Counted from the first letter of the stretch, positions 1 through 41,602 are shown. The stretch: DNA of 64,000 nt from a virus (IMGVR_UViG_3300031707_000008:1-64000); one strand, 5' to 3'. Program-made: numbers and translations. The notes: generated by a model not told the origin, from the letters alone.

Positions 1-165
1 TCTCGCGATTGCTATCGCATCCCCGATAGACACTTCCGCCTTCCACGTGAATTCCATATAACCTGCTACCGTGCCGTCGTTGTAGATATGCATACCGAGT
101 TCGACTTCAAACGTCTTCCCCCCCGGTGTGACCTCTCGGATTTCCACCACTTTCTTCAACTTCAC
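1..165 (-). CDS. Hypothetical protein, runs off the left edge (MKLKKVVEIREVTPGGKTFEVELGMH...)
   Basis: Manually translated; GTG at 165 preceded by GAGGGGGTGAGAGAG; open to position 1; same strand as two upstream ORFs. Confidence 0.6.
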   Translation of the reverse strand, partial: MKLKKVVEIREVTPGGKTFEVELGMHIYNDGTVAGYMEFTWKAEVSIGDAIAIAR

Positions 166-220
166 CTCTCTCACCCCCTCTCTATCTGGATATTGTGTGT
201 TCAGAAACTCTTTCACTTAC

Positions 221-541
221 TCAAGAGATCTTATCGAAGTCCTCTTGAGTAAGATACGCCGTGCCGTCCTTGATTGGCACTGTTACCCATGTAGAAAACA
301 TTCTGCTGTGAACCACATAGGCGCACATTATGCGTTCCTTTGGTGTATCCGGTGGAAGATCGATCGTCACGAGATCCCCTCCGCTGACGTCTACCCAAAG
401 TGAGTCGTCTCCTTCAGGTCCGCAACAATGTACATCACAGAACGACCCCCAATCTTCCCAGAATCTCTCGACCATTAACTTGATGTCCGGATCATCTGGG
501 AGTGCTTTCTTAAAGGTGTAGTATGCTTTTGGTTCGCTCAT
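221..541 (-). CDS. Hypothetical protein (early region)
   Basis: 106-aa ORF with GAGGTGA RBS, in a leftward operon. Confidence 0.75.
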   Translation of the reverse strand: MSEPKAYYTFKKALPDDPDIKLMVERFWEDWGSFCDVHCCGPEGDDSLWVDVSGGDLVTIDLPPDTPKERIMCAYVVHSRMFSTWVTVPIKDGTAYLTQEDFDKIS

Positions 542-576
542 AGTTTCTTCACCTCCTCTCTTCTTCTCTCACCTTT

Positions 577-888
577 TCATAGTGCATTCAAAACCTCAAA
601 TAATTTAGCCGTCCTTTGCTTGTCGAGTGTTATCCTTGTGGTGTTGTCCTTTCTCGGTGGATCCGGTGGTCTGAATTGGTGAATCCGATGGATGTGAACT
701 TGCACGCCTTTTGCCAGATACTCATCAACGATTGCATGCAAGTATCTGCTGGTCTGCTGTATGGTTGGCATTGTTGCCATGTAGTATGAAGCTATCACTC
801 TTGCTACTTCCTCTGCAAACTCTGCGGTCGCAACTTCATACTCTGTCAGCTTCAGTCCTTCTCTCTGCTCTTTCTTCTCCTCTTTCAT
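577..888 (-). CDS. Hypothetical protein (early region)
   Basis: ATG at 888 preceded by GGGAGGTGAGAGAG RBS; directly downstream of a sigma70-type promoter. Confidence 0.75.
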   Translation of the reverse strand: MKEEKKEQREGLKLTEYEVATAEFAEEVARVIASYYMATMPTIQQTSRYLHAIVDEYLAKGVQVHIHRIHQFRPPDPPRKDNTTRITLDKQRTAKLFEVLNAL

Positions 889-956
889 CTCTCTCACCTC
901 CCTTCTTCTCCTCTTTACCTGCAAAAGCCACATTCTACATTTTTCCTATTTTTAAT

Positions 957-985
957 ATTATAATTGGTGACCCTTGAAAAATCTA
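957..985 (-). promoter_or_regulatory. Sigma70-type promoter, leftward (TAGATT-N17-TATAAT)
   Basis: Perfect -10, 17-bp spacer, -35 resembles the TTGATT of the sister promoters. Confidence 0.65.
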
Positions 986-1024
986 GGGATAATTTCTTGT
1001 CTTTCCTGCCCTGCTTATCGTGGT

Positions 1025-1310
1025 TAACTTGTTTATTTTCAACCACTTACAATCCACTTCTCAATCTCCAATAAAAAAACTTTATCTGCTAATTTCTCTG
1101 CTATCACTTAAAGTGTTATTTTTCAACCATTTATCCAGGTTTTGCTGTTCCCTTCATCTAGTGATCTAACTTATTTATTTACAACCATTTATAAGGTACC
1201 TTCTAACTTATTTTATCTCAACCACTTACACCAACTCGCTAACTTATTTTATCTCAACCACTTATAGGTTTTCTTTTTTTCACGCTAACTTATTTTATCT
1301 CAACCATTTA
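1025..1310. repeat. Array 1: six copies of the 25-bp quasi-palindrome TAACTTRTTTATTTTCAACCACTTA
   Basis: Copies start at 1025, 1109, 1167, 1204, 1240, 1286. Confidence 0.9.
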
Positions 1311-1973
1311 ACTCTGGGGTGACTGAAAGGGGATTGAATTTCTCTTGTCCCATTCAAGTCTCTATATATCTGCAATCTCTTTTTCCTCTCCATATTTCCT
1401 ATATAGAGGACTGGCTGGTATATGGTTAGCATGTCAGCTTAGAGAGTACATGAAGCTCAATCAGGTGACATGAGATTGATGCTTACTTTAGAGAGAATTT
1501 CCGCAGAGAATTTCTACAAGTGATTGCGATACATTGTCGGGAAATAGTTTTTGGCGTTGGGTGGTGACGCAATAATGCGAGACTTTTGTGGAATGTTGTC
1601 AGGAGGTTGGGGGGTCTTGATAAAAAGCCCTACCGGGCCCCCCCAACAAGGAACACCATTGCGTGCATGCTGCGGGAGTCGGGGGGCAGAACCGCAAAAG
1701 CTAAAATGATACCGGAAACGTTGTACCTGCAGTGGACTCACTTAAGAATACACACCTTAACAAGTGCCTCAAGCGTCAAACTGTATACTTTCCACCAGGG
1801 TAACCCCAGGGGTAGACCGCCCACTCCCCGCATAAGGTGTCCAAAAACCTGGTAGGCGTAGAGTAATGTGTATCACGTACCATGTTAACCCCCCACTGGG
1901 AAGGCCATCGATAGGCGTGGAGGAACTCCCGGCGACTTCTCAAGAGTACACAAAGCACGATCAGGTGGCCACT

Positions 1974-2054
1974 TTATACGCCTACGTGGGGGGTTACGTT
2001 CAAGTAGAGGTTTTGCGGCGTGCAAGCTGCAAACGTTATACGCCTACGTGGGGG
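1974..2054 (+). repeat. 19-bp direct repeat TTATACGCCTACGTGGGGG (2 copies)
   Basis: Copies at 1974-1992 and 2036-2054. Confidence 0.8.
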
Positions 2055-2848
2055 TCTCCCAATGTTACGCAAAAGCTATAAAGTGTCCCGTGGCGTTGTA
2101 CCAGGGGGGGCCCAGGTAACCTTTCACACTTGTTTCATCTCTCCTTAGCATTTCTCTGGGGGGAAAGACAGGGTTTAGTGACTCTTTAACTCCATAAGTG
2201 ATAGATCCCCCTAGGTTTCCCTATATATAAGGACCGACCGATAGAGCACAACATATACCGGTTAACTTATTATGACTCCTCCCAACAATATTCCCCCCTC
2301 GATTGCCTTATTGTGATGAAGTATGTTTATAAGAGTGTATTGCATATGGTGGGGTGGACACTCTTGAGAATTTTCGTGGTGTCAGAACTGAGTAGAAGCA
2401 ACGTTACATTGAAGCAGAGAAGTTATACAAGTTTGTTGAGTCTTGGAATCCAGTGGAGGGCAAACGAAACGCTTGACATTGTTCGCTGGGGGGAAAGCTA
2501 AAATTTCCTACTCTTGTTTGTGTCCAGGGCAACCCTCAAACTAAAAAACTCACCGTGGCGGCGAAAGGCTATATACCTGGCCGTGGCGTTGTGTCCGGGG
2601 GCCCCCGTTGCGTGGGGCACCAAGGAATTCTGGTTTTTTGTTGTTTTTTGACATGTTACATTACAATAAAAATGTGTCATACCATTTTCGTTGGAAATTT
2701 TTCCATACCAATACGTTGCCGCCAATGCGATCACAGGGTAAAAACGAAATTTACCCGTGGTATAAACGGTTTATTTCATGTGTTTCGCGAACTATTGGAA
2801 TGGCACGTCATTTATGCACAATAGGTTTCCACCTTCTCCCGCCGGTTT

Positions 2849-2993
2849 CGGATATATCCGATTTTATCACTTACCTAAAGTGATACTATACCCGCGGGTT
2901 TCGGATATATCCGAATTATGTACGCAACCTTTCGGATATATCTGAAATATGTACGCAAATCGCCCACTCCCGCCCCGATCGGATATATCCGAT
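2849..2993. repeat. Cluster of CGGATATATCCG palindromes
   Basis: Copies at 2849, 2902, 2933 (1 mismatch), 2980; another at 5694; half-sites at ~3946, ~4000, ~4036. Confidence 0.85.
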
Positions 2994-3015
2994 TTTATCA
3001 TCTAAATTGAAGTTA

Positions 3016-3582
3016 TAAGTGATTGAATTTAAACAAGTTAGCGGTTTTTTATTTTTGGTGTAAAGTGACACTATAAGTGGTTGAAAATAAACAAGTTAGA
3101 CAGGGTACTATTTAAGTGGTTGAAAATAAACAAGTTAACTGGACTAAATTGAGTCACCATTTTACCGGCTAACTTGTTTATTTTCAACATGTTATTGGGT
3201 TTTTGCGTTAACTTGTTTATTTTCAATCATTTATAAGGACTTTTTTTGAAAATCGTTAACTTGTTTATTTTCAACCACTTACAAGAATTTCCCTCATACA
3301 CTTTAACCTGTTTAAAATCAATAACTTAAACCCTGCGGGTATAAGTGTGTGTAAAATAACAAGTTACCGAATCACTTTAAGTGCATGTTATTAAACAAGT
3401 TATATCGTCACATGTAACTGGTTGAAAATAAACAAGTTAAGTCCCCACTTTTTTATGCACTTATAAAAATCGTTAACTTATTTATTTTCAAGCACTTATA
3501 TGGTTATTTAAGAATGATTTTGTGCAAACAATAATTGTTGTGCATAAAGATTTTTGCTAAGTGGTTGAAAATAAACAAGTTA
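3016..3582. repeat. Array 2: twelve copies of the 25-bp TAA-N19-TTA motif
   Basis: Starts at 3016, 3074, 3113, 3170, 3209, 3257, 3304, 3342, 3378, 3415, 3474, 3558; degenerate extras at ~3631 and ~3708. Confidence 0.9.
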
Positions 3583-3598
3583 ACATGGATTTTTTTAC

Positions 3599-3627
3599 TT
3601 GATTTTTGATCGGGAATATACTATAAT
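3599..3627 (+). promoter_or_regulatory. Sigma70-type promoter (TTGATT-N17-TATAAT)
   Basis: Near-consensus -35, perfect -10, T-rich upstream tract. Confidence 0.8.
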
Positions 3628-3762
3628 ATATATGTGATTGAAAATAAACAAGATAGAGAGGAGGTGAGAGTATTGCAGATAAAATCGGATATAGTTTTCA
3701 ATCACTATAAAGTGTTGGAAAATAACAAGTTAGAGGTTTTTAAGGGTTTGGAAGGAGAAAAC

Positions 3763-3933
3763 GTGGATATCCAAAAGATTTTGGGGGATGAAGAATTTTT
3801 AGTGTGGTTGAAGAAAAACTTCTTCTATTTCATGAAAAAGGAGGTTTTAATTGAAAAGTATCTTCGATATCTTAGTAAAGACGAGATATCGATAAATAAA
3901 TTGTATTCTGTCTATAAAGACAGCAATACCTGA
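3763..3933 (+). CDS. Small hypothetical protein, paralog of 4447-4614
   Basis: GTG after AAGGAG; shares WLKKNFFYFMKKE.LIEKY with the minus-strand copy; alternative TTG start at 3673. Confidence 0.75.
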   Translation: MDIQKILGDEEFLVWLKKNFFYFMKKEVLIEKYLRYLSKDEISINKLYSVYKDSNT

Positions 3934-3962
3934 ATTTCATAAATAATATCCGATTTTATCAG

Positions 3963-3995
3963 ATAAAGGCGATATCAGATATCGCCTTTATTTTT
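3963..3995 (+). terminator. Intrinsic terminator (ATAAAGGCGATATC-A-GATATCGCCTTTAT + T tract)
   Basis: Perfect 14-bp inverted repeat just after the stop at 3933. Confidence 0.7.
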
Positions 3996-4391
3996 GGTTA
4001 TATCCGATTCGGAGATGTCCGAAAAAACCGCAGATATCCGAAACCGGCGGGAGTGGGTAGGGGACCACATCAACACACGGAGTGTTGATGCAAAACGATC
4101 TGGTGTTAAAATGACTATAAACGTTGGAGAGATTGTGTTGCGTTTAGTGATTTTATACGTCGGACGTTTTGATGGGAATACGGATCGCTCCTTTCGTAAA
4201 AACAGGATAATCGTTTACACCCTGTCGGGAATTTCGTTTTAAAGTAGGGTTCACCAACATGTCCCGGGATAACGTTCGACGTGAAAAACATCAATGCGAT
4301 TTACGTGTTGACCAACGTTTATAGTCATTTTAACACCAGGTTCTTGACTCACATGCACTCCGTGTGTTGATACAGAATTCCCGCAATAAGA

Positions 4392-4421
4392 AGAGAGCGG
4401 TCCGGCAGTGGATCGCTCTCT
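4392..4421 (-). terminator. Probable terminator of the leftward unit (AGAGAGCGGTCC...GGATCGCTCTCT)
   Basis: Hairpin downstream of the stop at 4447, followed by TCTTATT on the minus strand. Confidence 0.5.
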
Positions 4422-4446
4422 GTGAGGTCGATCGGTTTACGTTGCT

Positions 4447-4614
4447 CTACTGGTTGTCCTTGTAGACAGCGTAGAGCTTCCCGAGACTTTCGAGGTCCTT
4501 CCCGAGGTACTTCATGTACTTTTCGATGAGGATCTCCTTCTTCATGAAATAGAAGAAGTTTTTCTTCAGCCAGGTCGTGAAGTCTTCGTCCTTGAGAATC
4601 GTGTTGATGTCCAT
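4447..4614 (-). CDS. Small hypothetical protein, paralog of 3763-3933
   Basis: ATG after GGAGGTT; MDINTILKDEDFTTWLKKNFFYFMKKEILIEKY. Confidence 0.8.
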   Translation of the reverse strand: MDINTILKDEDFTTWLKKNFFYFMKKEILIEKYMKYLGKDLESLGKLYAVYKDNQ

Positions 4615-4765
4615 GTGCTTAACCTCCAAACCAAAACCGTTCTTGTTTGTTACTGGTCGCTTAATCACCTGCCGACCGACCTCCAGGACTACCAGTCCTT
4701 CCTCATGTCTATCACCTCCTTGCTGGGTTGTGGATATCCGTGCGGGCATTGCGTGCTTCCTTTCG

Positions 4766-4987
4766 TTAGGCGTTAGTCGTTACTGGGAACCATTCGCCTT
4801 TCTTGTAGAGATGGCATATCTCGGTTTCGTGGCGTTCGGAATCGAGAACGTATTCGCAAACTACGAAAGCGTCATCGTCGTCGAGAGGGTCTGGATGCAC
4901 GTCAATAAAGATGGCGCTAACGTTGGCACTCTGGATGAGTGTCGCGGCTTTTTCGATAGCGATTTTCTTGAGTTCTTCTCTTGTCAT
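4766..4987 (-). CDS. Hypothetical protein, first gene after the promoter at 5009-5037
   Basis: AAGGAGG RBS, 73 aa. Confidence 0.75.
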   Translation of the reverse strand: MTREELKKIAIEKAATLIQSANVSAIFIDVHPDPLDDDDAFVVCEYVLDSERHETEICHLYKKGEWFPVTTNA

Positions 4988-5008
4988 TCTTTGTCCTCCT
5001 TCATATTA

Positions 5009-5037
5009 ATTATATGATAGTACGGGAAGACAATCAA
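5009..5037 (-). promoter_or_regulatory. Sigma70-type promoter (TTGATT-N17-TATAAT)
   Basis: Mirror of 3599-3627, including the upstream AAGTTAACATGGATTTTTTT. Confidence 0.8.
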
Positions 5038-5053
5038 GAAAAAAAATCCATGT

Positions 5054-5616
5054 TAACTTATTTAGAATCAATCACTTACAAAAAACTTTTTGTTCAGAAT
5101 CATTATAAGTTCAGACTTATTGTGCTTTTTCAAGATAAGTGTTTGGATAATAAACGTTTAACGAATCTTTCCCTGCAGGAAAAAAGTGGCCATCTAACTT
5201 ATTTATTTTCAATCACTTACATGTGGTGAGCTATCTTATTTATTTCTATACACTTACAGCGATACGATAAACGTTTATTTAACACGCAGTTACAACGCCC
5301 TCTATAAGTGTTTGATTTTAAAAGTGTTAACGATACATGTGCAAGACTTGCTAACTTGTTTAGAATCAATCACTTATTCGATTTCAAAATATTCCTTGAT
5401 AAGTGTTTGATAATAAACCAATTAACGTATTCTCGTATAACTGATTGATTCTAAATAAGTTAACGCATAATCGTCTTTTCGAAATTATCCAGGTTAACTT
5501 ATTTATTAACAACAAGTTAGATATCATACATGCTAACTTATTATTATACAAACACTTACAACGTCACATTCCATTACAAATAAAAAATGGCTAACTTGTT
5601 TAAAATCAATTACTTA
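5054..5616. repeat. Array 3: twelve copies of the 25-bp TAA-N19-TTA motif
   Basis: Starts at 5054, 5136, 5195, 5232, 5268, 5305, 5352, 5400, 5438, 5495, 5534, 5592. Confidence 0.9.
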
Positions 5617-5899
5617 TAGTTGCTTAATAGATGAATAAATCAACTTCACCCGAATTCCGCGGGTAAGGTATCACTTTGGGTAAGTGATAAAATCGGATAT
5701 ATCCGAATCGGGCGGGAGTAGGTGTAAATATCGTTTGTCCGAAGGGATCATACACCTTTCTTGTTTATCCTTTCGAATGTTTCCTTTCATATGATAAACG
5801 TTTCATACATCCATCTAATTCCTTTTATACGTCAGGATCGTTCTGCATTAACACACCTTGTGTTGATGAACAATACTTTTTAATAAAGGGTGTGTCACT

Positions 5900-6192
5900 T
5901 CATTCTCGTCCGAATTTATCGTCCGGAATGAAGTTGCGTAATCATTCTCGTCCGAATTTATCGTCCGAGATTGAAGTTGCGTAATCATTCTCGTCCGAAT
6001 TTATCGTCCGAGATTGAAGTTGCGTAATCATTCTCGTCCGAATTTATCGTCCGAGATTGAAGTTGCGTAATCATTCTCGTCCGAATTTATCGTCCGGAAT
6101 GAAGTTGCGTAATCATTCTCGTCCGAATTTATCGTCCGGAATGAAGTTGCGTAATCATTCTCGTCCGAATTTATCGTCCGAGATTGAAGTTG
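5900..6192 (+). repeat. Tandem repeat, 7 units of 42/43 bp (TCATTCTCGTCCGAATTTATCGTCCG[GAAT/AGATT]GAAGTTGCGTAA)
   Basis: Units at 5900, 5942, 5985, 6028, 6071, 6113, 6155; variant order A B B B A A B. Confidence 0.95.
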
Positions 6193-7021
6193 TGTACCTT
6201 CTCAATCACATTGAGAAGGAATGATAGTCCTACATGATAGGACTGTCTGTGATGTTCTTAAATAGTTTATGTTTGGGAGGCTTCTTGGGGATGTGTACTT
6301 CCTTTCTGTTCTTCTCTTCTCCCTCTGCTTCACATACAACTTCTCAAATAACTCTTCTGCTCCTCCTATAGTAACCAAGGGTACCAACCCTGTACGCTTT
6401 GATAACGTTCGTATTCTTCTCTCCTATACATGTTAAGTATCATCACAACAACAACAACTTAACCCAAAGGTGTAGTGATTATAGAAGTCCTTTGTTGGTG
6501 AATGGTTCAAGAAGTATTGCAACGTAACAAGGAGACGAGTAACGTTTGAAACGTTCACTTCTTTCAAAACATGATACCGGTTCATACACTTGCTGGGTGC
6601 ATGGCATGCATGGTTGGGGTGAGTACTTCAACAATTCAAAACAGTTCCGGTACATGGGTTCGTTTTGATTGAGGTACACTTGATGGGTGGAGCATTACTT
6701 AATAATGTTTACATTCATATGAGTCCGATCGTGGGGTGGTGGTGGACTCCAATTAAATGTAACTTGTATTGCACTCAACAATAAATGTACAGGCCTGGGG
6801 TGTTGTCGGATGCAAAGAGAACGTCAACAACAACCCTGCGGGGGGTGAAACATTTCATGAGTATACGTAAAACAGCATGCGGGGTAGGGCCGCCAGTGGG
6901 CGCCCGGGTGAAAAATAATGGTGTATAATTTGGGAAATCGCGCCTGAATCTCGTATATTTCTTTTGAGCGGATAGATTACTTGGTTGTTTACACAACCAA
7001 AAAATTATGAGAGGAGGTTTC

Positions 7022-7213
7022 GTGTCAAACGTAAAATTGGGTTGGGCGGTTAACGTTATTCTCCTTTTCGTGGCACTCTTTACGCAGGCGCATTCTTGCC
7101 CTATCGAGAACACGCCACTGGGAGAATACATCACTGCCTTCGCGGCTTTTGTGAACTTGGGAATTTTCGTTATCTTGTGGATGCGAAAAGGTTCCAGTTT
7201 CTGGAAGACGTAA
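7022..7213 (+). CDS. Small membrane protein
   Basis: GAGGAGG RBS, two hydrophobic segments. Confidence 0.7.
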   Translation: MSNVKLGWAVNVILLFVALFTQAHSCPIENTPLGEYITAFAAFVNLGIFVILWMRKGSSFWKT

Positions 7214-7224
7214 GGTCGTTATAA

Positions 7225-7265
7225 AGTAACGAGTGACGCAGATTTCGTTCGCGTCACTCGTTACT
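7225..7265. terminator. 15-bp perfect stem-loop (AGTAACGAGTGACGC / GCGTCACTCGTTACT)
   Basis: Perfect inverted repeat just after the ORF; no strong U tract. Confidence 0.5.
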
Positions 7266-7350
7266 CAACATCATTGATGATGGATACAAATAAGGTTGTG
7301 ATGAAATTTTACAACCTTATTTGTATCAAGATGGGACTTTGGAAAAGACC

Positions 7351-7650
7351 ATGTCAGACTTGAAAAAGGAATTTCTGGACGAAGTAATGGATAGTAAGGA
7401 AGTTGCCGAGTTCTTGAAGATGCATGTAAAGACGGTGTGTCGTCTCGCGAAAATGGGGTGCATTCCAGCGTGGAAGTTTCGTGGTGTATGGCGTTATAGT
7501 AGGACATGTCTTGTTGCTTTCTTGCAGGGTAAACCCCCCAACGCCATCGTCACATATCTGGACAGCACGGGGACAAAGCACCGTCAACACTTGACAGTTC
7601 CCGGCCCACCCAAAAACGACCCCGCTTTTACTCACACACAGGACCGATGA
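7351..7650 (+). CDS. Excisionase-like (HTH_17/MerR-type) DNA-binding protein
   Basis: VMDSKEVAEFLKMHVKTVCRLAKMGCIPAWKFRGVWRY matches the Xis-like HTH pattern. Confidence 0.85.
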   Translation: MSDLKKEFLDEVMDSKEVAEFLKMHVKTVCRLAKMGCIPAWKFRGVWRYSRTCLVAFLQGKPPNAIVTYLDSTGTKHRQHLTVPGPPKNDPAFTHTQDR

Positions 7651-7652
7651 AC

Positions 7653-7751
7653 ATGACTAATAAGGTTCTCCCCTTCGTCTTCTACATTCTAGGAAGCGTA
7701 TGCTTCCCCGCGGGGTCAATATTATCGATCCTTCTAATGAAGAAAGGGTAA
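7653..7751 (+). CDS. 32-aa hydrophobic peptide (MTNKVLPFVFYILGSVCFPAGSILSILLMKKG)
   Basis: Manually translated; fills the gap between two genes. Confidence 0.4.
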   Translation: MTNKVLPFVFYILGSVCFPAGSILSILLMKKG

Positions 7752-7779
7752 TGAGCATTAACTAAAGTTGGTGCAAACC

Positions 7780-8160
7780 ATGATAGAAATCTTTGTATTC
7801 GGAAGCAATTTACGTGGAATCCATAGCGCAGGTGCAGCACTTACCGCACTCCAACAACATGGAGCAAAGTATGGCATAGGCGAAGGAAGAACGGGAAATT
7901 CATACGCCTTACCAACGATGGATCATTCTCTATATCCTTTGTCACTTACACGAATTGCATTCTACATCAATAGATTCAAGGATTACGCAAGAAATAATCC
8001 TGCGGAAACGTTCATGGTAACACGCATTGGGTGCGGGTACTGCGGGAAGACCAACGAGGAAATAGCACTTTTGTTCCGGAATTCTCCTGATAATTGTGAA
8101 TTCGATATCAAGTGGGAGCCCTTTCTAGAGCTTACCGCAAGATTTTGGGGGACGTACTGA
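7780..8160 (+). CDS. Conserved phage protein, IFVFGSN..G.H..GAA family (macrodomain-like)
   Basis: EIFVFGSNLRGIHSAGAA...GEGRTGNSYALPT...F.VTRIGCG motifs. Confidence 0.75.
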   Translation: MIEIFVFGSNLRGIHSAGAALTALQQHGAKYGIGEGRTGNSYALPTMDHSLYPLSLTRIAFYINRFKDYARNNPAETFMVTRIGCGYCGKTNEEIALLFRNSPDNCEFDIKWEPFLELTARFWGTY

Positions 8161-8363
8161 TGACATACGCGATTATGTATAACGAAAAACACCCTGATTG
8201 TGGGTTGTTTAACTTGGTTCGAAAAGTTGACCTGCAAACTACGTGGTGGATTTGTCCTGAGTGTCATACGTTTTGCTTTCGTGATGGACAAACATGTGAT
8301 TGTTTAGTGTCGATATTTAATCTTGAGATGTTTGACACTAGAGAAACGTTAAGAGTATGTTAA
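8160..8363 (+). CDS. Small Cys-rich hypothetical protein
   Basis: ATG overlaps the upstream stop; CPEC...CDC. Confidence 0.55.
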   Translation: MTYAIMYNEKHPDCGLFNLVRKVDLQTTWWICPECHTFCFRDGQTCDCLVSIFNLEMFDTRETLRVC

Positions 8364-9229
8364 GTATTGTGATGGCACATTTCAAACGAGAAACTCTTCT
8401 TGATCGAACGTTATGGGCGTATCGGCATTATCATTCTCTAGATACGCTACGTGATGTTGAGTTTATCATAATTGATGATGATGGTGGAAAGAGTCAACAT
8501 TTTTGGAATGTGATTGCGGAACATGGAAAGGCACTCAATATTTTTGCTACCGGAATAGATGAAGGAACTTATTGTCCTTGTATTCCGTTGAACTTCGCAA
8601 TAAAGCAAGCGCGTGGGAATGTTGTCGTAATAACGAATCCTGAATGTTTGCCCTTCACGAAAGACTTGCTGGACCAAATTAAAAAAAGAATAACAAATAA
8701 TATGTACCTCTCGTGTGCGTGTTATTCTTTGCCCTACGATGTTACGCAAGCTATGTATATGGTTGATTGGAAAACTAAGAAATATGCACTTACGTTTTTA
8801 GAATCAATACCAATTTACGATAACATGGCAGATGGTGACGGTATACCCGGCTGGTATAACCATAGTGAATATCGTCCAGTAAATTTGCATTGGTGTACGG
8901 CAATTTCTAGAGAATTCCTTGTTGCTATGGGTGCGTTTGATGAAGATTTTGCAATGGGGTTTGCTTACGAAGATAATGATTTTGCACGACGCATTGCAAA
9001 TTCTGGTTTGCGGATCCAATTCGCGAATGACTTACGCGTTTTCCATCAACATCATTACTTGCCTACATATTATACGCCAGAGAGACATGCACATATTGAA
9101 AGAAATCGCGTGGTATGTGAAAATAAACGCTATGCGGGTTTCGTTCGAAATCTAGGCAAAAAGTGGGGAACGTTACACAATCTACCTAAGCGAGTAGAGC
9201 GTTGGGAAGATGGGAAATTATGTCAATAA
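8357..9229 (+). CDS. Glycosyltransferase family 2 (GT-A fold)
   Basis: LSIVMAH, FIIIDDD, LNFAIKQARG, GAFDEDFAMGFAYEDNDFARR, HQHH. Confidence 0.9.
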   Translation: MLSIVMAHFKRETLLDRTLWAYRHYHSLDTLRDVEFIIIDDDGGKSQHFWNVIAEHGKALNIFATGIDEGTYCPCIPLNFAIKQARGNVVVITNPECLPFTKDLLDQIKKRITNNMYLSCACYSLPYDVTQAMYMVDWKTKKYALTFLESIPIYDNMADGDGIPGWYNHSEYRPVNLHWCTAISREFLVAMGAFDEDFAMGFAYEDNDFARRIANSGLRIQFANDLRVFHQHHYLPTYYTPERHAHIERNRVVCENKRYAGFVRNLGKKWGTLHNLPKRVERWEDGKLCQ

Positions 9230-38165: not shown

Positions 38166-38615
38166 GTGCCTACTTTTGAATATGTTGTTGAAGGTTCTTT
38201 CGATGCGGCACATTCTTTACCAAATTATGATGGTCCTTGTAAGTTCTTGCATGGTCATACATGGAAGGTGAGGATTCTTGTATCAGTTTTCGTGATGGAG
38301 CAGTTATTTCGAGAATTAGAAGGATTGTTGATTGATTTCAAGTTGATAAAGAGTTGTTTCCGCAAATATGACCATACACATCTTAATGCTTCCTTCCCGT
38401 TTCCCTTTCGCCCAACTGCAGAAACACTTGCGTGTACAATTTGGAGTGATTGTTATAACGCGATTACGCGTGTTGATCCGACACTAACAATTCAACGTTT
38501 GTGTGTTGAATTGTGGGAGTCTGTTGATTCTTGCGTAACTATTCGTGCGGGTGCAGAATGTGCTTGTTGTGTTGATACGATGAAGCGCTATGTGGAAGGT
38601 TGTATAACTCCATGA
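38166..38615 (+). CDS. queD: 6-carboxy-5,6,7,8-tetrahydropterin synthase
   Basis: FDAAHSLPNYDGPCKFLHGHTW, IDF, DHTHLN, PTAE, LWES. Confidence 0.95.
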   Translation: MPTFEYVVEGSFDAAHSLPNYDGPCKFLHGHTWKVRILVSVFVMEQLFRELEGLLIDFKLIKSCFRKYDHTHLNASFPFPFRPTAETLACTIWSDCYNAITRVDPTLTIQRLCVELWESVDSCVTIRAGAECACCVDTMKRYVEGCITP

Positions 38616-39271
38616 TAAAGGAATGTCTTGAGTCCTTGCAAATAACATTGCGTTCCTTGGGTTTACCCATTGGCAAAATTGATGGGATTTGTGGCCCAAG
38701 GACAGAGTTTTGTACAACGTTTGCAATGCATGAACTATGCAAGACGGGTATAATTGAAGAAGTGTTGCATTCACCCTTGGATAATAACTTGAGTAAGGCA
38801 CTTGTGTCACTCTTGCAAAGTTATATGCAAACATATTACGGCGTAGGGTGTCGTTTGAATTGGTGGATTACGTTGTTGCATCGTCAAGTAGGAAAACCTT
38901 ACAATTTTGGCATTGAAATTTCCGCGACGGATCCCAATCCGTCAGCATTCGATTGTAGTGAATTGATTGAGTGGTCTTTAAAGCAGTTCGACATTGATAT
39001 CCCGGATGGGGCGAACAATCAATTTGAGTTTTGTGTGAAAAACGGTAGAGTTATTCCGAAGGAACGTTTGTTGGATACAAAAGGTGCGTTTGGTTTTATT
39101 CATGGTAAACGTGACCACTTTGTGGGGAAGATTCACGTGGGTGTTGCCGATGGGGTAGGAAATATGATTGAAGCTCGTGGCAAAGCTTATGGTGTAATCG
39201 TTTCCCCTGTCGATTTGTCGCGATGGACGCACGCGTGTGTGTTACCCTTTTTGCAAGAAGGAGTGGTGTAG
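38612..39271 (+). CDS. Endolysin: peptidoglycan-binding domain + NlpC/P60 peptidase
   Basis: LQ..L..LG...GKIDGICGPRT; QVGKPY, AFDCSEL, HVG, MIEARG. Confidence 0.85.
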   Translation: MIKECLESLQITLRSLGLPIGKIDGICGPRTEFCTTFAMHELCKTGIIEEVLHSPLDNNLSKALVSLLQSYMQTYYGVGCRLNWWITLLHRQVGKPYNFGIEISATDPNPSAFDCSELIEWSLKQFDIDIPDGANNQFEFCVKNGRVIPKERLLDTKGAFGFIHGKRDHFVGKIHVGVADGVGNMIEARGKAYGVIVSPVDLSRWTHACVLPFLQEGVV

Positions 39272-39903
39272 TGGAAGAAAAAGATGATGTAGAGTGTTGC
39301 GAAGCAGAAGAAGAACTTTTTGCAAGATTGTACTGGAAGCGGTTACTACCAATTGCTGTACGAAAGATGCTTGATGATTTCGGTTTGGTAGGGCAGCACT
39401 TTGTTGAAACACCAGAGCGTGTGACGAAAGCTTTCGCGGAATTACTTGAGTTTACACATGACGATGTAAGATTGGCGGAATTACATGAATTATTTACGAG
39501 ACGTTTCTCGACTAACTCGTCGGGTATGGTTATATACCGTGATTTACAGGCGAGTTCTGTGTGTCCGCATCACCTTCTTCCGGTTTTGTATGAGGTAGTG
39601 ATAGGGTATATTCCGCGGGAGTTTGTCCTAGGTGCATCGAAATTCGCGCGAGCTGTTCGCGTTATTGCTGCCCAACCTGTCACACAAGAAGCCTTTACGG
39701 ACCAGGTTGCAGACGAATTCTTTAAAGCTTTAGACGCACGTGGGGTTATTGTTATGGTTCAGGGCACGCATACATGTATGTGTTCACGCGGGGCGAAGAC
39801 AAATTCGAAGATGTTGACTTCTTCAGTTCGTGGTATTTTTGCTGCAGAAGATACCGCGAAACAAGAATTCTTTAATGTGTTGCGAACCATGCCGGGAAAT
39901 TGA
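39271..39903 (+). CDS. folE: GTP cyclohydrolase I
   Basis: ETPERV, SVCPHHLLP, GASKFAR, QE, HTCMCSRG. Confidence 0.95.
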   Translation: MEEKDDVECCEAEEELFARLYWKRLLPIAVRKMLDDFGLVGQHFVETPERVTKAFAELLEFTHDDVRLAELHELFTRRFSTNSSGMVIYRDLQASSVCPHHLLPVLYEVVIGYIPREFVLGASKFARAVRVIAAQPVTQEAFTDQVADEFFKALDARGVIVMVQGTHTCMCSRGAKTNSKMLTSSVRGIFAAEDTAKQEFFNVLRTMPGN

Positions 39904-39916
39904 GGAGGTTAACTAA

Positions 39917-41602
39917 ATGTGTTCGGTTGGAGGTTTTATTGTACACGAATTTAATCTTGCGAATGCTTCAAGAATTCAGCGGATTTTGTCTAGATTCGAT
40001 TCTTTGATTTTAGAAGGGACTGAACGCGGAAGAGATGCATGGGGGAGTGTCTTGTTGTGGAAGGACGGGGAAGCATTCCATAAGTTGGTGTCAAAGGGAA
40101 TTGGTTGTGCGACTTCTGAAGAACTTGAAAACAAAATGTGGAAGGGCATTCGGGAATTTTTAACTACATCGCCTAAAGCAAAACTTGTTGCAGGCATTTT
40201 TAATAATCGTGCAGAACCCACAACAGAATGGATCAAAGAGAAAACTCTTGAAACGGTACAACCGTTTTCGTTTGGTGATATTGATCTTGCGCATAATGGT
40301 ACGATCGCGAACGATAAGGATTTGTACGCAACGTTGGGTTTACCTGTCGGTAGTGTGGATTCTCAAGTTCTCCCCCGAGTATTGCAATCGAATTGGTCAC
40401 CGAATGCGCATAGACACTTGGGTGAGTTGTGGAATTTATTCACGAATACTGTAAAGGGGAGTTTTGCAATTACTTTCTTGCATAAGGCAGATCCTGAGGC
40501 ACTTTACGTTGGTACAAACTATAAACCGTTGTTTTTGATTCGCGATCGACAACTTGATACGACGTTTGTCACTTCGATCCCGCATACATACTCAATTTTT
40601 AGCGAACGTTCTGCAGCAGAACAAGTTTCTCCATATTCGTGGATGCGCTTAACTGCTAAAAGAGAAGTTGAATCATGTGATTTGTGGACGGAAGAATCTT
40701 TGTTACCTTGCACACAAGAAGATTTGATGTCTCTTAAACCTCGCCCTGTCGTTGTCATTTGCAGTGGAGGTTTGGACTCAGTAACAGCCGCCACTTTATA
40801 TGTAAAGGATTCACGAAGAATCTTTAACGTACACTTGTTTCATGCATTATACAAATGTAATGCAGAAACAAGTGAAATTTCTGCTATAGAACGTGTTGCC
40901 AACACTTTAGGAGTTCCTTATGTGACCGCGTGTGTTCCTTTCTTCAAGGAATGGGGGCATTCTCCGATCTTAGATGACAACGTCACCGATTACTCGCATC
41001 GTAATGCTGGCGAGAGTGGAGCGGAATTTGCCTTCGAATGGGTCCCTGCACGAAATCTTGTATTGTACGCGATGGGGTTGGCTTACTTGGAAACGTTAGG
41101 TGGTGGAGAGTTAATTTCCGGAATCAATTTGGAGGAAGCGGGTGCGTATCCCGATAACGAACAAGCTTTTATACGAGCTTTACGCAAAGTTGTTCCCTTT
41201 GCAGTGCGTGCTTACATCAACATTCGATTGCAATTACCGGTTGCAAATTTGATGAAGCACGAGATCGTGAAGTTGGGAATTGGTCTTGATGCGCCTCTTC
41301 AACATACATGGAGTTGTTACAATAGTGCAAAACAACATTGTGGATCGTGTGGTCCTTGTTACATGAGACAAAGAGCTTTTGCGATGAATCACGCGATCGA
41401 CCCCGTTGATTACAAGTTTGTTCCTGAAGGTTTGTGGAAAGATTGTGAAACTTGGGTTGTTGCCCAAAAACGAATTGTTGTCAGCAAAGACTTTCAAGAA
41501 TTGTTAGCAATGGTGAGGTTGCAATGTCAGATGCAATCCTATCCGTTGGAAGTATTTGGACGCGCGTTGACGCAGTCAATCCCAACGGTTCAGCAAGAAT
41601 AA
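39917..41602 (+). CDS. queC: Gat-QueC fusion (class II glutamine amidotransferase + 7-cyano-7-deazaguanine synthase)
   Basis: N-terminal MC, ERGRDAWG, HNGTIAND, DS; SGGLDS, VPARN, YPDN, TWSCY, HCGSCGPC. Confidence 0.93.
   Translation: MCSVGGFIVHEFNLANASRIQRILSRFDSLILEGTERGRDAWGSVLLWKDGEAFHKLVSKGIGCATSEELENKMWKGIREFLTTSPKAKLVAGIFNNRAEPTTEWIKEKTLETVQPFSFGDIDLAHNGTIANDKDLYATLGLPVGSVDSQVLPRVLQSNWSPNAHRHLGELWNLFTNTVKGSFAITFLHKADPEALYVGTNYKPLFLIRDRQLDTTFVTSIPHTYSIFSERSAAEQVSPYSWMRLTAKREVESCDLWTEESLLPCTQEDLMSLKPRPVVVICSGGLDSVTAATLYVKDSRRIFNVHLFHALYKCNAETSEISAIERVANTLGVPYVTACVPFFKEWGHSPILDDNVTDYSHRNAGESGAEFAFEWVPARNLVLYAMGLAYLETLGGGELISGINLEEAGAYPDNEQAFIRALRKVVPFAVRAYINIRLQLPVANLMKHEIVKLGIGLDAPLQHTWSCYNSAKQHCGSCGPCYMRQRAFAMNHAIDPVDYKFVPEGLWKDCETWVVAQKRIVVSKDFQELLAMVRLQCQMQSYPLEVFGRALTQSIPTVQQE

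What the first reader, a model, noticed from the sequence alone, without database searches (positions are those of the whole stretch)
1025..5616. Three helically phased arrays of a 25-bp double IHF-like site with conserved spacing, each upstream of a strong promoter
Seen: 30 copies of TAA-N19-TTA (consensus TAAGTGGTTGAAAATAAACAAGTTA) in three arrays. Start-to-start spacings read outward from the promoter are 84,59,37,36,38,47,48,39,57,39,58 (array 2), 82,59,37,36,37,47,48,38,57,39,58 (array 3) and 84,58,37,36,46 (array 1). The DNA between copies has diverged while its length is kept. Spacings cluster near 37, 47.5 and 58 bp, i.e. about 3.5, 4.5 and 5.5 helical turns, so neighbouring sites sit on opposite helix faces. 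Known: each half resembles the IHF consensus WATCAANNNNTTR, with exact matches at 3316, 5066, 5364 and 5604, and IHF bends DNA into a U-turn. Inference: these are scaffolds that fold ~0.3-0.6 kb into a defined serpentine nucleoprotein structure using an IHF/HU-type or phage protein. Possible roles are early promoter control, genome entry or packaging, or origin function. I do not know of this architecture being described.
Basis: partly seen in the sequence, partly recalled or inferred. Interest (0 to 1): 0.88.

Follow-up and report, generated by a model that had tools for sequence, protein, structure and literature searches.

The report
Phased protein-binding site arrays at phage promoters
An uncultured sediment phage carries three arrays of a 25-bp protein-binding motif upstream of its small-gene promoters, and the distances between sites have been kept while the DNA between them has randomised, so this is a real, selected DNA scaffold whose binding protein and exact job are still unknown.

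Summary
All lie in three arrays within 1025-5616, and there are none in the other ~70 kb of the contig.

The refutation test fails. Array 1 and arrays 2/3 share spacer lengths of 11/11, 12/12, 33/34 and 59/59(57), yet their spacer sequences are no more alike than shuffled DNA (46-48% versus 46%). Arrays 2 and 3 are a diverged inverted duplication: sites 77% identical, spacers 60%, and 8 of 11 spacer lengths identical. One site is flipped in place.

The ten inner spacings share one helical phase, about half a turn (p about 0.001).

Two arrays sit 41 bp upstream of conserved near-consensus promoters. The array 1 promoter is weaker and lies 23 bp further away.

The IHF reading is only partly supported. 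One half of the motif resembles an IHF core (7 exact matches). The motif carries about 29 bits, far more than that consensus specifies. No HU/IHF gene is present in the contig, and the motif is not enriched in 301 Bacteroidota genomes.

Best reading: multi-site platforms for a sequence-specific, probably phage-encoded, architectural regulator of early promoters. No relatives were found for comparison. It is a new variant of a known kind.

The parts
1025..1310 (-). Array 1: six motif copies at 1025, 1109, 1167, 1204, 1240 and 1286, all in one orientation. Spacings read outward from the promoter are 84, 58, 37, 36, 46.
   Evidence: Its spacers show no detectable similarity to those of arrays 2/3, yet their lengths match.
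957..985 (-). Promoter P1 (candidate): weak -35 hexamer TAGATT at 985-980, a 17-bp spacer, and a TATAAT -10 hexamer at 962-957. The -35 begins 64 bp from the start of the nearest site, against 41 bp in arrays 2 and 3.
   Evidence: Alignment, sequence. It was not among the best hits of the scan.
577..888 (-). First gene downstream of array 1, 103 aa counted from the ATG behind a strong ribosome-binding site. It has no family. A low-confidence model has a strand-helix-helix order.
3016..3582 (+). Array 2: twelve motif copies in orientation pattern FFFRRRRFFFRF toward the promoter. Spacings are 58, 39, 57, 39, 48, 47, 38, 36, 37, 59, 84.
3599..3627 (+). Promoter P2: TTGATT, 17 bp, TATAAT. The centre of the nearest site lies at about -64 from the estimated transcription start.
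   Evidence: Best-scoring promoter-like site in 1-8400. The hexamers are identical to those of P3 although the 17-bp spacer between them has diverged.
3631..3732 (+). Two further motif copies, at 3631-3655 (over the estimated transcription start) and 3708-3732 (in the 5' leader). Array 3 has no equivalent of either.
   Evidence: 30.1 and 23.7 bits.
3763..3933 (+). Microprotein gene, copy 1 (56 aa; an in-frame TTG at 3673 with a strong ribosome-binding site would give 86 aa). It is followed by an intrinsic terminator at 3961-3993.
4447..4614 (-). Microprotein gene, copy 2 (55 aa, 69% identical to copy 1). It is followed by a hairpin at 4393-4421.
   Evidence: inverted repeat I5.
4766..4987 (-). 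73-aa gene directly behind promoter P3. It has no family.
5009..5037 (-). Promoter P3: TTGATT, 17 bp, TATAAT. The centre of the nearest site lies at about -64.
5054..5616 (-). Array 3: twelve motif copies, the mirror image of array 2. Spacings are 58, 39, 57, 38, 48, 47, 37, 36, 37, 59, 82. Orientation matches array 2 at 11 of 12 positions. The sites score lower and carry a T-rich centre variant that gives six exact IHF-core matches.
7351..7650 (+). HTH_17 (excisionase / MerR-like) protein. It is the only family-supported DNA-binding protein near the arrays, so it is a candidate binder. This is inference only.
   Evidence: (E 4.6e-10).

Best explanation
The three arrays are cis-acting, double-stranded DNA platforms. 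Each binds many copies of one sequence-specific DNA-binding protein, most likely phage-encoded, upstream of a sigma-70-type promoter that drives small, probably early, genes.

Base-specific contacts fall at the two ends of the 25-29 bp site, around an A/T-rich centre. Because sites are spaced at about 3.5, 4.5 and 5.5 helical turns, neighbouring proteins sit on opposite faces of the DNA. Together they would fold 0.3-0.6 kb of upstream DNA into one defined higher-order complex.

That complex sets the activity of the promoter. My guess is timed shut-off, because promoter P2 also has a site over its transcription start. Activation through upstream wrapping is also possible.

Shown: the sites exist, they are confined to these arrays, their positions and spacings are under purifying selection, and they are coupled to conserved promoters.

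Inferred: that a protein binds, which protein it is, the shape of the complex and the sign of the regulation.
For: - Specificity. There are 32 sites with about 29 bits of information, and no look-alike of even 8 bits in the remaining ~70 kb.
- Selection on geometry. Array 1 versus arrays 2/3: spacer identity 46-48% equals the shuffled baseline (46 +/- 1.7%), yet lengths are 11/11, 12/12, 33/34 and 59/59(57). Array 2 versus 3: sites 77% and spacers 60% identical, 8 of 11 spacer lengths identical and the other three off by 1-2 bp.
- Contrast with the flanks. The flanks of the same palindrome differ by tens of bp, and the two units have different DNA downstream of their promoters.
- A site kept regardless of orientation. 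One site (3257 versus 5352) is inverted at exactly the same position.
- Shared strength pattern. Positions 7-9 are among the weakest sites in both arrays 2 and 3, and positions 6, 10 and 12 among the strongest; position 11 disagrees.
- Phasing. The ten inner spacings share one phase for a period of 10.2-10.5 bp (R 0.82, mean 0.56 turn). Monte Carlo p is about 0.001.
- Promoters. The -35 and -10 hexamers are identical in P2 and P3, across a diverged 17-bp spacer. The nearest site starts 41 bp before the -35 in both.
- The motif sequence itself is conserved in both orientations, as expected for recognition of duplex DNA rather than of a hairpin.
- Published precedents for small phage proteins that bind repeats near promoters: D29 Gp36, a MerR-like repressor (PMC12266134), and the phi29 p4/p6 complexes (PMC3100819, PMC10899789).
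Against: - No binder is identified. The microprotein has no homologue or fold match. The 103-aa protein gave only a low-confidence model. The HTH_17 protein is a candidate by family and position only.
- No related phage could be found, so all evidence for constraint comes from paralogues inside one contig.
- The array 1 promoter is weak and offset by 23 bp, so the coupling to promoters is not uniform.
- Twelve sites is far more than ordinary operators need.
- Early timing of these promoters is assumed, not shown.
- Array 1 may belong to a co-occurring variant rather than the same molecule.
Confidence: 0.5

Rival explanations
1. The sites are bound by a host IHF/HU-family protein that sharply bends DNA. 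The arrays would either build a zigzag architecture at the promoters or act as a sink for the host protein.
For: - Read on the opposite strand, the left half of the motif fits WATCAANNNNTTR at 8 of 9 positions in the consensus, and exactly in 7 sites. The rest of the window holds 6 such matches, close to the 4.9 expected for the whole window.
- The minimum centre-to-centre distance of 36 bp equals an IHF-sized footprint (my knowledge).
- The phage carries 7-deazaguanine synthesis genes. That base change alters the major groove, which would spare a protein that binds in the minor groove (inference).
- A few unrelated viral contigs hold 2-4 look-alike sites in promoter-bearing intergenic DNA, and some of these match the IHF core exactly.
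Against: - The motif holds about 29 bits. Positions 5-6 and 16-25, which the IHF core consensus leaves unspecified, are among the best conserved.
- The right half never has the core C.
- Exact IHF matches are almost confined to the weakest-scoring array, array 3.
- No PF00216 gene is in the contig.
- The host is unknown.
- The extended motif is no more frequent than its reversed control in 301 Bacteroidota genomes, 13 versus 16 matches.
Confidence: 0.2
2. The arrays are iteron-type replication origins, or parts of one. They would bind a phage initiator, with the adjacent promoters supplying transcriptional activation.
For: - They lie in the 6-kb non-coding zone where transcription diverges and cumulative GC skew is lowest.
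- The arrays have only 28-30% G+C, against 43.5% for the genome.
- Repeat-rich origins at junctions between early and late genes are known in lactococcal phages (my knowledge).
Against: - Orientations are mixed and spacing is at half-integral turns, unlike iterons, which are direct repeats on one face.
- There are three arrays, each tied to a promoter.
- No 60-bp window reaches 82% A+T, and DnaA boxes are not enriched, 3 in 8 kb.
- No initiator gene is adjacent.
- The 42/43-bp tandem repeat at 5883-6223 is a better iteron candidate.
Confidence: 0.1
3. The arrays act in genome handling rather than transcription. Options are a T5-like DNA-entry pause or anchoring signal, a partition centromere, or a packaging recognition site.
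For: - The overall picture resembles the untranslated repeat regions of T5: a large non-coding zone next to small genes under strong promoters, with inverted copies of a box-bearing module kilobases apart and fixed spacer lengths (bioRxiv 10.1101/866236).
- Centromeres such as parC and sopC are also multi-site arrays at promoters (my knowledge).
Against: - There are no DnaA-box pairs.
- No ParB or ParA gene is in the 74.5 kb held.
- The likely small and large terminase genes and the portal gene sit at about 69-73.6 kb, far from the arrays.
- The genome ends are unknown, and contig data gave no termini.
Confidence: 0.1
4. The arrays work as folded single strands or cruciforms, for example hairpin promoters or priming signals, because they hold many inverted site pairs.
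For: As single-stranded DNA, array 2 folds far better than shuffled sequence: -106 versus -54 kcal/mol, z = -11.2, with site blocks pairing in a nested way.
Against: - The fold follows automatically from having one motif in both orientations.
- The motif sequence itself is conserved, rather than pairing being kept by compensating changes.
- Array 1 has all sites in one orientation and cannot form such hairpins.
- Spacers are not complementary.
Confidence: 0.03
5. The arrays are leftovers of duplication with no function of their own.
For: Arrays 2 and 3 are clearly an inverted duplication, and their spacers keep residual similarity: 60% against a 46% baseline.
Against: - Array 1 shares the spacing code with no spacer similarity at all.
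- Sites are much better conserved than spacers.
- Indels are nearly absent inside the arrays but common just outside them.
Confidence: 0.02

Closest known systems
Untranslated repeat regions of the phage T5 left terminal repeat (injection-stop region; Davison, bioRxiv 10.1101/866236)
   Same: - A large non-coding, repeat-rich zone lies beside small genes under strong promoters in a large siphovirus.
- Inverted copies of a module lie kilobases apart and carry several boxes for a DNA-binding protein.
- Spacer length is strictly conserved (52 bp there) and read as helical phasing.
   Different: - The T5 boxes are 9-bp DnaA boxes, 8 in all and in pairs. Here there is a 25-29 bp unrelated motif in 32 copies at half-turn phasing.
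- Here each array is attached to a promoter.
- Gene similarity to named phages is distant at best. The only protein compared, the DNA polymerase, reached at most 31% identity. No T5-specific gene was searched for.
- Terminal repeats and two-step injection are untested.
- The function of the T5 region is itself only a hypothesis.
Phage phi29 early-promoter nucleoprotein complexes (p6 and p4) and host Spo0A boxes (PMC10899789, PMC3100819, PMC2731898)
   Same: - Many copies of a small protein organise a few hundred bp around early promoters into a defined wrapped or hairpin structure.
- That structure switches early transcription off.
- Clusters of binding sites near early promoters are part of the design.
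   Different: - p6 reads DNA bendability at a 24-bp period, not a high-information motif.
- p4 has only a few sites.
- No p4 or p6 homologue was found or specifically searched for here.
Plasmid and phage centromeres and iteron arrays (R1 parC, F sopC, P1 incC/incA, lambda ori; from my own knowledge)
   Same: - They are arrays of roughly 4-12 repeated binding sites, often at the promoter of a small autoregulated DNA-binding protein gene.
- They form a higher-order complex.
   Different: - Those repeats are usually direct, regularly spaced and on one helix face.
- Their partner genes (ParA/ParM/TubZ, Rep) lie next to them. None is seen here.
- Here orientation is mixed and the spacing is a fixed irregular series.
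IHF-assisted promoters and intasomes (lambda pL, Mu operator, attP; from my own knowledge)
   Same: Bending-protein sites upstream of a strong early phage promoter, placed at fixed helical positions.
   Different: - Those systems use 1-3 IHF sites together with other proteins' sites.
- Here 6-12 copies of one much more specific motif are used.
- IHF binding is unproven.
Mycobacteriophage D29 Gp36 (PMC12266134)
   Same: A small phage-encoded MerR/excisionase-like protein binds repeated DNA sites and represses phage genes. This phage encodes an HTH_17 protein 1.7 kb from array 3.
   Different: - Gp36 binds GC-rich direct repeats.
- No array with coded spacing is mentioned in that paper's abstract.
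- No link between the HTH_17 protein and the motif has been tested here.

Membership tests
IHF binding site | Core WATCAANNNNTTR | tested here: inconclusive
   7 of 32 sites match exactly, six of them in array 3. The consensus of arrays 1 and 2 misses one position. The right half always lacks the C.
IHF binding site | The consensus accounts for the conserved positions, with little specificity outside the core and an A/T-rich flank | tested here: not met
   Positions 5, 6, 17, 18 and 20-25 are 84-100% conserved. Total information is about 29 bits.
IHF binding site | An IHF/HU-family protein is available | tested here: inconclusive
   No PF00216 match in the 74.5-kb contig. The genome is incomplete and the host is unknown.
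Iteron-type replication origin | Direct repeats in one orientation at integral helical spacing | tested here: not met
   Orientations are mixed in arrays 2 and 3. The mean phase is 0.56 turn.
Iteron-type replication origin | Adjacent A/T-rich unwinding element, DnaA boxes or an initiator gene | tested here: not met
   No 60-bp window in 900-7400 reaches 82% A+T. There are 3 DnaA boxes in 8 kb. The neighbouring small genes have no family.
Partition centromere (parC / sopC / parS / tubC) | Partner NTPase and adaptor genes in the genome, normally adjacent | tested here: not met
   No ParB_N match. The only CbiA/ParA hit is the P-loop of a helicase at 13.6 bits. This holds only for the 74.5 kb available.
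Partition centromere (parC / sopC / parS / tubC) | Site array at the promoter of a small DNA-binding protein gene | tested here: inconclusive
   The arrays do precede small genes. None of those products is shown to bind DNA.
T5-type injection-stop repeat region | Paired DnaA boxes in inverted modules | tested here: not met
   The motif differs from TTWTNCACA at 3 of 8 defined positions. DnaA boxes are not enriched.
T5-type injection-stop repeat region | Location inside a long terminal repeat next to pre-early genes | not testable with these tools
   The genome ends are unknown. Only assembled contigs, not raw reads, could be laid on the region.
Multi-operator promoter control region | Sites at fixed positions relative to a conserved promoter | tested here: met
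   The nearest site starts 41 bp before the -35 in both P2 and P3 (centre about -64). The hexamers are conserved across a diverged spacer. In array 1 the distance is 23 bp longer.
Multi-operator promoter control region | A site overlapping the core promoter or transcription start | tested here: inconclusive
   Present at P2 (3631-3655). Absent at P3 and P1.
CRISPR array | Direct repeats in one orientation with unique spacers of uniform length | tested here: not met
   Orientation is mixed, spacers are 11-59 bp, and the same spacer lengths recur in paralogous arrays.

The most novel reading that the evidence does not exclude
The fixed, irregular series of distances (84, 58-59, 37, 36 and onward) is a structural code. 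It specifies one three-dimensional nucleoprotein fold, with proteins on alternating faces of the DNA.

Because arrays 2 and 3 are mirror images, they could also pair site by site across the 2.9-kb palindrome. That would clamp the two convergent microprotein genes into a closed loop. This would be a new kind of phage 'chromatin' switch, built from a single high-information motif and a phage-specific architectural protein.
Probability: 0.2. Interest if true: 0.8.

Novelty: new variant of a known kind. Interest (0 to 1): 0.6.

Why it matters
Multi-site arrays that fold DNA are known at origins, centromeres, intasomes and a few phage promoters. In most cases the evidence that spacing matters comes from experiments.

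Here the sequence alone gives an unusually clean natural experiment. Three paralogous arrays keep the same irregular series of distances, to within a base pair or two, while the spacer DNA has drifted to randomness and one site has flipped in place. That points to a defined higher-order complex on 0.3-0.6 kb of DNA at the promoters of a novel large phage.

If the binder is found, the system would offer:
- a compact model for how site spacing encodes nucleoprotein shape;
- a new phage regulator and operator set;
- a view into how an uncultured phage lineage controls its first genes.

If the binder turns out to be a host bending protein, it would be an extreme case of a phage recruiting or soaking up a nucleoid protein.

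Tried and rejected
**Search for relatives**
- Megablast of 1-8000 against cultured phages gave no match.
- Exact and degenerate motif scans of viral, metagenome and genome collections gave only single, chance-level hits.
- A looser 16-base pattern gave mostly single hits. A few contigs had 2-4 look-alike sites in promoter regions: L010, L073, L124/L131, L057/L150, L085. Secondary hits were about 9 times more frequent near the primary hit than far from it.
- Those contigs share no DNA-binding gene with this phage. Their flanking genes are unrelated, apart from distant matches to replication and 7-deazaguanine genes (L124 and L010 share QueD-like genes). I treat them as a weak lead only.
- A BLAST of one site against cultured phages hit only coding regions by chance.
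- The conserved site-plus-promoter junction has no match in viral contigs.
- Protein-based locus searches with the 118-aa, HTH_17 and polymerase proteins found nothing.
- The microprotein has no homologue by word search.
- The A1S_2505-like neighbour has 1555 homologues, but the best is only 61% identical.

**Sequencing runs**
- No RNA holder is listed. The two holders are sediment DNA runs kept as contigs.

**Binder candidates**
- Sequence searches against solved structures gave nothing.
- The AlphaFold model of the microprotein (pLDDT 76, four helices) has no Foldseek match. Its best structural Z is 4.9. Several HMG boxes appear at Z 3.4-4.0, which is not significant.
- The model of the 103-aa protein is poor (pLDDT 55) and its matches are meaningless.
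- The protein atlas gave no usable lead.

**Other checks**
- Rfam found nothing in the region.
- The motif is not a DnaA box (checked).
- By eye and from memory of the consensus sequences only, it is also not a Spo0A box, CodY box, cre, FNR box or Fis site.
- I considered reading it as a Bacteroidota promoter (-7 box) and rejected that, because it does not fit that consensus.

Full report
**Context**

The window is the first 64 kb of a 74.6-kb linear viral contig from a sediment metagenome. Structural genes show a large tailed phage: tape measure, distal tail protein, capsid, protease and head-tail adaptor. It also has:
- family A polymerase and SbcC-like genes;
- gp32-like and RecA-like genes, a portal gene and a likely terminase at the far end;
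- a 7-deazaguanine synthesis set of FolE, QueD and amidotransferase-QueC.

Its polymerase is at most 31% identical to that of any cultured phage. Genes at 1-933 run leftward and genes from 7321 onward run rightward. The 6 kb between them is almost free of convincing genes, and the finding lies there.

Yes. The 25-bp consensus TAAGTGGTTGAAAATAAACAAGTTA has 13 matches at up to three mismatches, against none in 100 shuffles. A wider scan and a weight matrix give 32 sites:
- six in array 1 (1025-1310);
- twelve in array 2 (3016-3582), plus two just downstream of its promoter (3631, 3708);
- twelve in array 3 (5054-5616).

No other position in the whole contig scores even 8 bits, whereas the sites score 14.5-38.8 bits. 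That matrix was built from these same sites.

**The motif**

The logo carries about 29 bits. It extends by two conserved positions on each side. Eight of twelve mirrored position pairs are palindromic, but three strongly conserved pairs are not. Each site therefore has an unambiguous orientation, with at least 10 bits between the two strands.

The best-conserved bases lie at the two ends (positions 1-10 and 16-25). The centre is A/T-rich, and its register shifts by one base in some copies. This suggests base contacts at both ends and shape reading or bending in the middle. That last point is inference.

Arrays 2 and 3 align colinearly as an inverted duplication.
- Sites are 77% identical.
- Spacers are 60% identical, against 46 +/- 1.7% for shuffled spacers under the same alignment scheme.
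- Spacer lengths are 33/33, 14/14, 32/32, 14/13, 23/23, 22/22, 13/12, 11/11, 12/12, 34/34 and 59/57.

Array 1 is more telling. Its spacers are 46-48% identical to those of arrays 2 and 3, which is the random baseline. Yet their lengths are 11/11, 12/12, 33/34 and 59/59(57).

Just outside the arrays the same palindrome is fluid. The left flank has four copies of a 14-bp palindrome box where the right flank has one. The DNA downstream of the two promoters is also different.

One site (3257 versus 5352) is inverted in place. Positions 7-9 are among the weakest sites in both arrays 2 and 3, and positions 6, 10 and 12 among the strongest.

So spacing is not a by-product of recent duplication. Site positions are under selection.

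**Helical phasing**

The ten inner spacings of array 2 fall in three clusters: 36-39, 47-48 and 57-59 bp. They share one phase for a period of 10.2-10.5 bp, with resultant length 0.82 and mean phase 0.56 turn. Random spacings in the same range reach this in about 0.1% of trials for periods of 10-11 bp, and 0.4% for any period of 7-15 bp.

The promoter-proximal gaps are close to whole turns: 84 bp, and 73 bp to the site over the transcription start of P2. Only about ten spacings are independent, so this is good but not overwhelming support.

**Promoters and units**

The two best sigma-70-like sites in 1-8400 are those behind arrays 2 and 3. Their hexamers are identical, although the 17-bp spacer between them has diverged. 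In both, the nearest motif copy starts 41 bp before the -35, so its centre lies at about -64.

- P2 drives a 56-aa microprotein gene and a clean terminator.
- P3 drives a 73-aa gene and the second microprotein copy, which is 69% identical to the first.
- Array 1 has a consensus -10 and a weak -35 that lies 23 bp further away. It leads into the leftward genes.

'Each upstream of a strong promoter' is therefore right for two arrays and only roughly right for the third.

**Who binds?**

Read on the opposite strand, the left half of the motif resembles the IHF core. Seven sites match it exactly, against six matches in the other 62 kb, which is about the chance level.

Several points go against IHF:
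- The right half never has the critical C.
- Positions that IHF leaves free are highly conserved.
- Six of the seven exact matches sit in the weakest-scoring array.
- No HU/IHF-family gene is in the contig.

The host is unknown. One phage protein carries a type IX secretion sorting domain, which hints at the Bacteroidota-Fibrobacterota-Chlorobiota group of bacteria. Against that, the strong ribosome-binding sites are atypical for Bacteroidota. In 301 Bacteroidota genomes the extended motif is no commoner than its reversed control, 13 versus 16 matches, so there is no sign of a host regulon.

I therefore favour a phage-encoded, sequence-specific protein. The candidates are:
- the HTH_17 protein at 7351-7650, the only one with family support;
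- the duplicated microprotein, whose gene is the constant cargo of the array-promoter unit;
- the 103-aa product behind array 1.

None could be confirmed.

**Other functions considered**

*Replication origin.* The location and low G+C fit. Mixed orientation, half-turn spacing, three promoter-linked copies, and the lack of an unwinding element, DnaA boxes or a nearby initiator gene do not fit.

*Partition.* There is no ParA or ParB in the 74.5 kb held.

*Packaging.* The likely terminase genes and the portal gene are at about 69-73.6 kb.

*T5-like entry signal.* The overall look is similar. There are no DnaA boxes, and the genome ends are unknown.

*Single-strand or cruciform structure.* Array 2 folds very well as a single strand, z = -11. 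This follows from one motif occurring in both orientations, and array 1 cannot fold this way.

**Comparison and novelty**

The closest published architecture is the set of untranslated repeat regions in the T5 terminal repeat. The closest functional analogues are the phi29 p4/p6 complexes and small MerR-like phage repressors such as D29 Gp36.

None of them combines a high-information motif, 6-12 sites per array, a fixed irregular half-turn spacing series, and three paralogous copies. My literature searches found nothing matching this. I class it as a new variant of a known kind: multi-site nucleoprotein control regions.

**Caveats**

- All evidence for constraint comes from within one contig, because no relative was found.
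- In the source run, the assembler's pieces covering 1-1633 have depth 6-10. The piece covering 1767-5929 has depth 26, and the bridging piece has depth 4. Array 1 may therefore belong to a co-occurring variant. That would make the comparison one between phages, and it would not weaken the argument.
- Expression timing, protein binding and the shape of the complex are all inferred.

Noticed in passing
window 2826-5728: The two array-promoter-microprotein-terminator units form a degenerate 2.9-kb palindrome. Its arms are 72-89% complementary in patches, and the axis shifts between patches because of indels outside the arrays.
   Followed up: partly
window 2848-2994, 3994-4024, 5693-5706 (also 3678-3693): A second repeat family is built on the perfect 14-bp palindrome TCGGATATATCCGA with conserved flanks. 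There are four copies at the far edge of array 2, one at the far edge of array 3, two degenerate copies after the left terminator and a partial copy in the P2 leader. It is probably the operator of a different dimeric protein.
   Followed up: partly
window 4100-4127 and 4312-4339: A perfect 28-bp inverted repeat encloses 184 bp, between the two convergent terminators. It is flanked by a second 16-bp inverted pair (4069-4084 and 4357-4372). It stands out because the rest of the palindrome has diverged. It could be a small mobile element or a functional centre.
   Followed up: no
window 5883-6223: Seven tandem units of 42/43 bp in two sequence variants. Assembly depth there is about three times that of the flanks. 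It is a better candidate than the arrays for an iteron-type origin.
   Followed up: partly
window 1550-2640: A non-coding stretch with runs of G and C. It holds three copies of a roughly 43-nt module (1696, 2071, 2564), a 22-nt repeat (1971, 2033) and two terminator-like hairpins on the minus strand (about 1628-1651 and 2549-2565). These may be small RNA genes. Rfam finds nothing.
   Followed up: partly
window 38166-41602: QueD-like, GTP cyclohydrolase I and amidotransferase-QueC genes. The phage probably replaces some guanines with a 7-deazaguanine derivative, which changes the major groove that DNA-binding proteins see.
   Followed up: partly
L157 3026-4081 (contig 66025-67080): A 351-aa protein with a type IX secretion C-terminal sorting domain (31.4 bits, cut-off 27). 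This hints at a host in the Bacteroidota-Fibrobacterota-Chlorobiota group, although the strong ribosome-binding sites of the phage are unusual for Bacteroidota.
   Followed up: no
L157 5995-10626 (contig 68994-73625): A 193-aa gene, a 512-aa gene with no family and an 872-aa portal gene lie at the right end of the contig. They are probably the small terminase, the large terminase and the portal. The head module therefore seems split between the two contig ends, which fits a circularly permuted or incompletely assembled genome.
   Followed up: partly
window 1-1800 versus 1767-9000: In the source run the assembler's pieces differ in depth: about 6-10 for 1-1633, 4 for the 172-bp bridge, 26 for 1767-5929 and 20 beyond 6163. 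A separate 10.3-kb contig (depth 9) carries a 66-bp look-alike of the nearest site plus promoter (3562-3627, 10 differences). This suggests a second related phage or an unassembled part with a fourth unit.
   Followed up: partly
L010 8620-8775; L073 4770-4985: Two unrelated viral contigs hold 3-4 sites that are up to 24 of 25 identical to this motif. They lie upstream of sigma-70-like promoters in intergenic DNA. This could be chance plus IHF-likeness, or a shared binding-protein family.
   Followed up: partly
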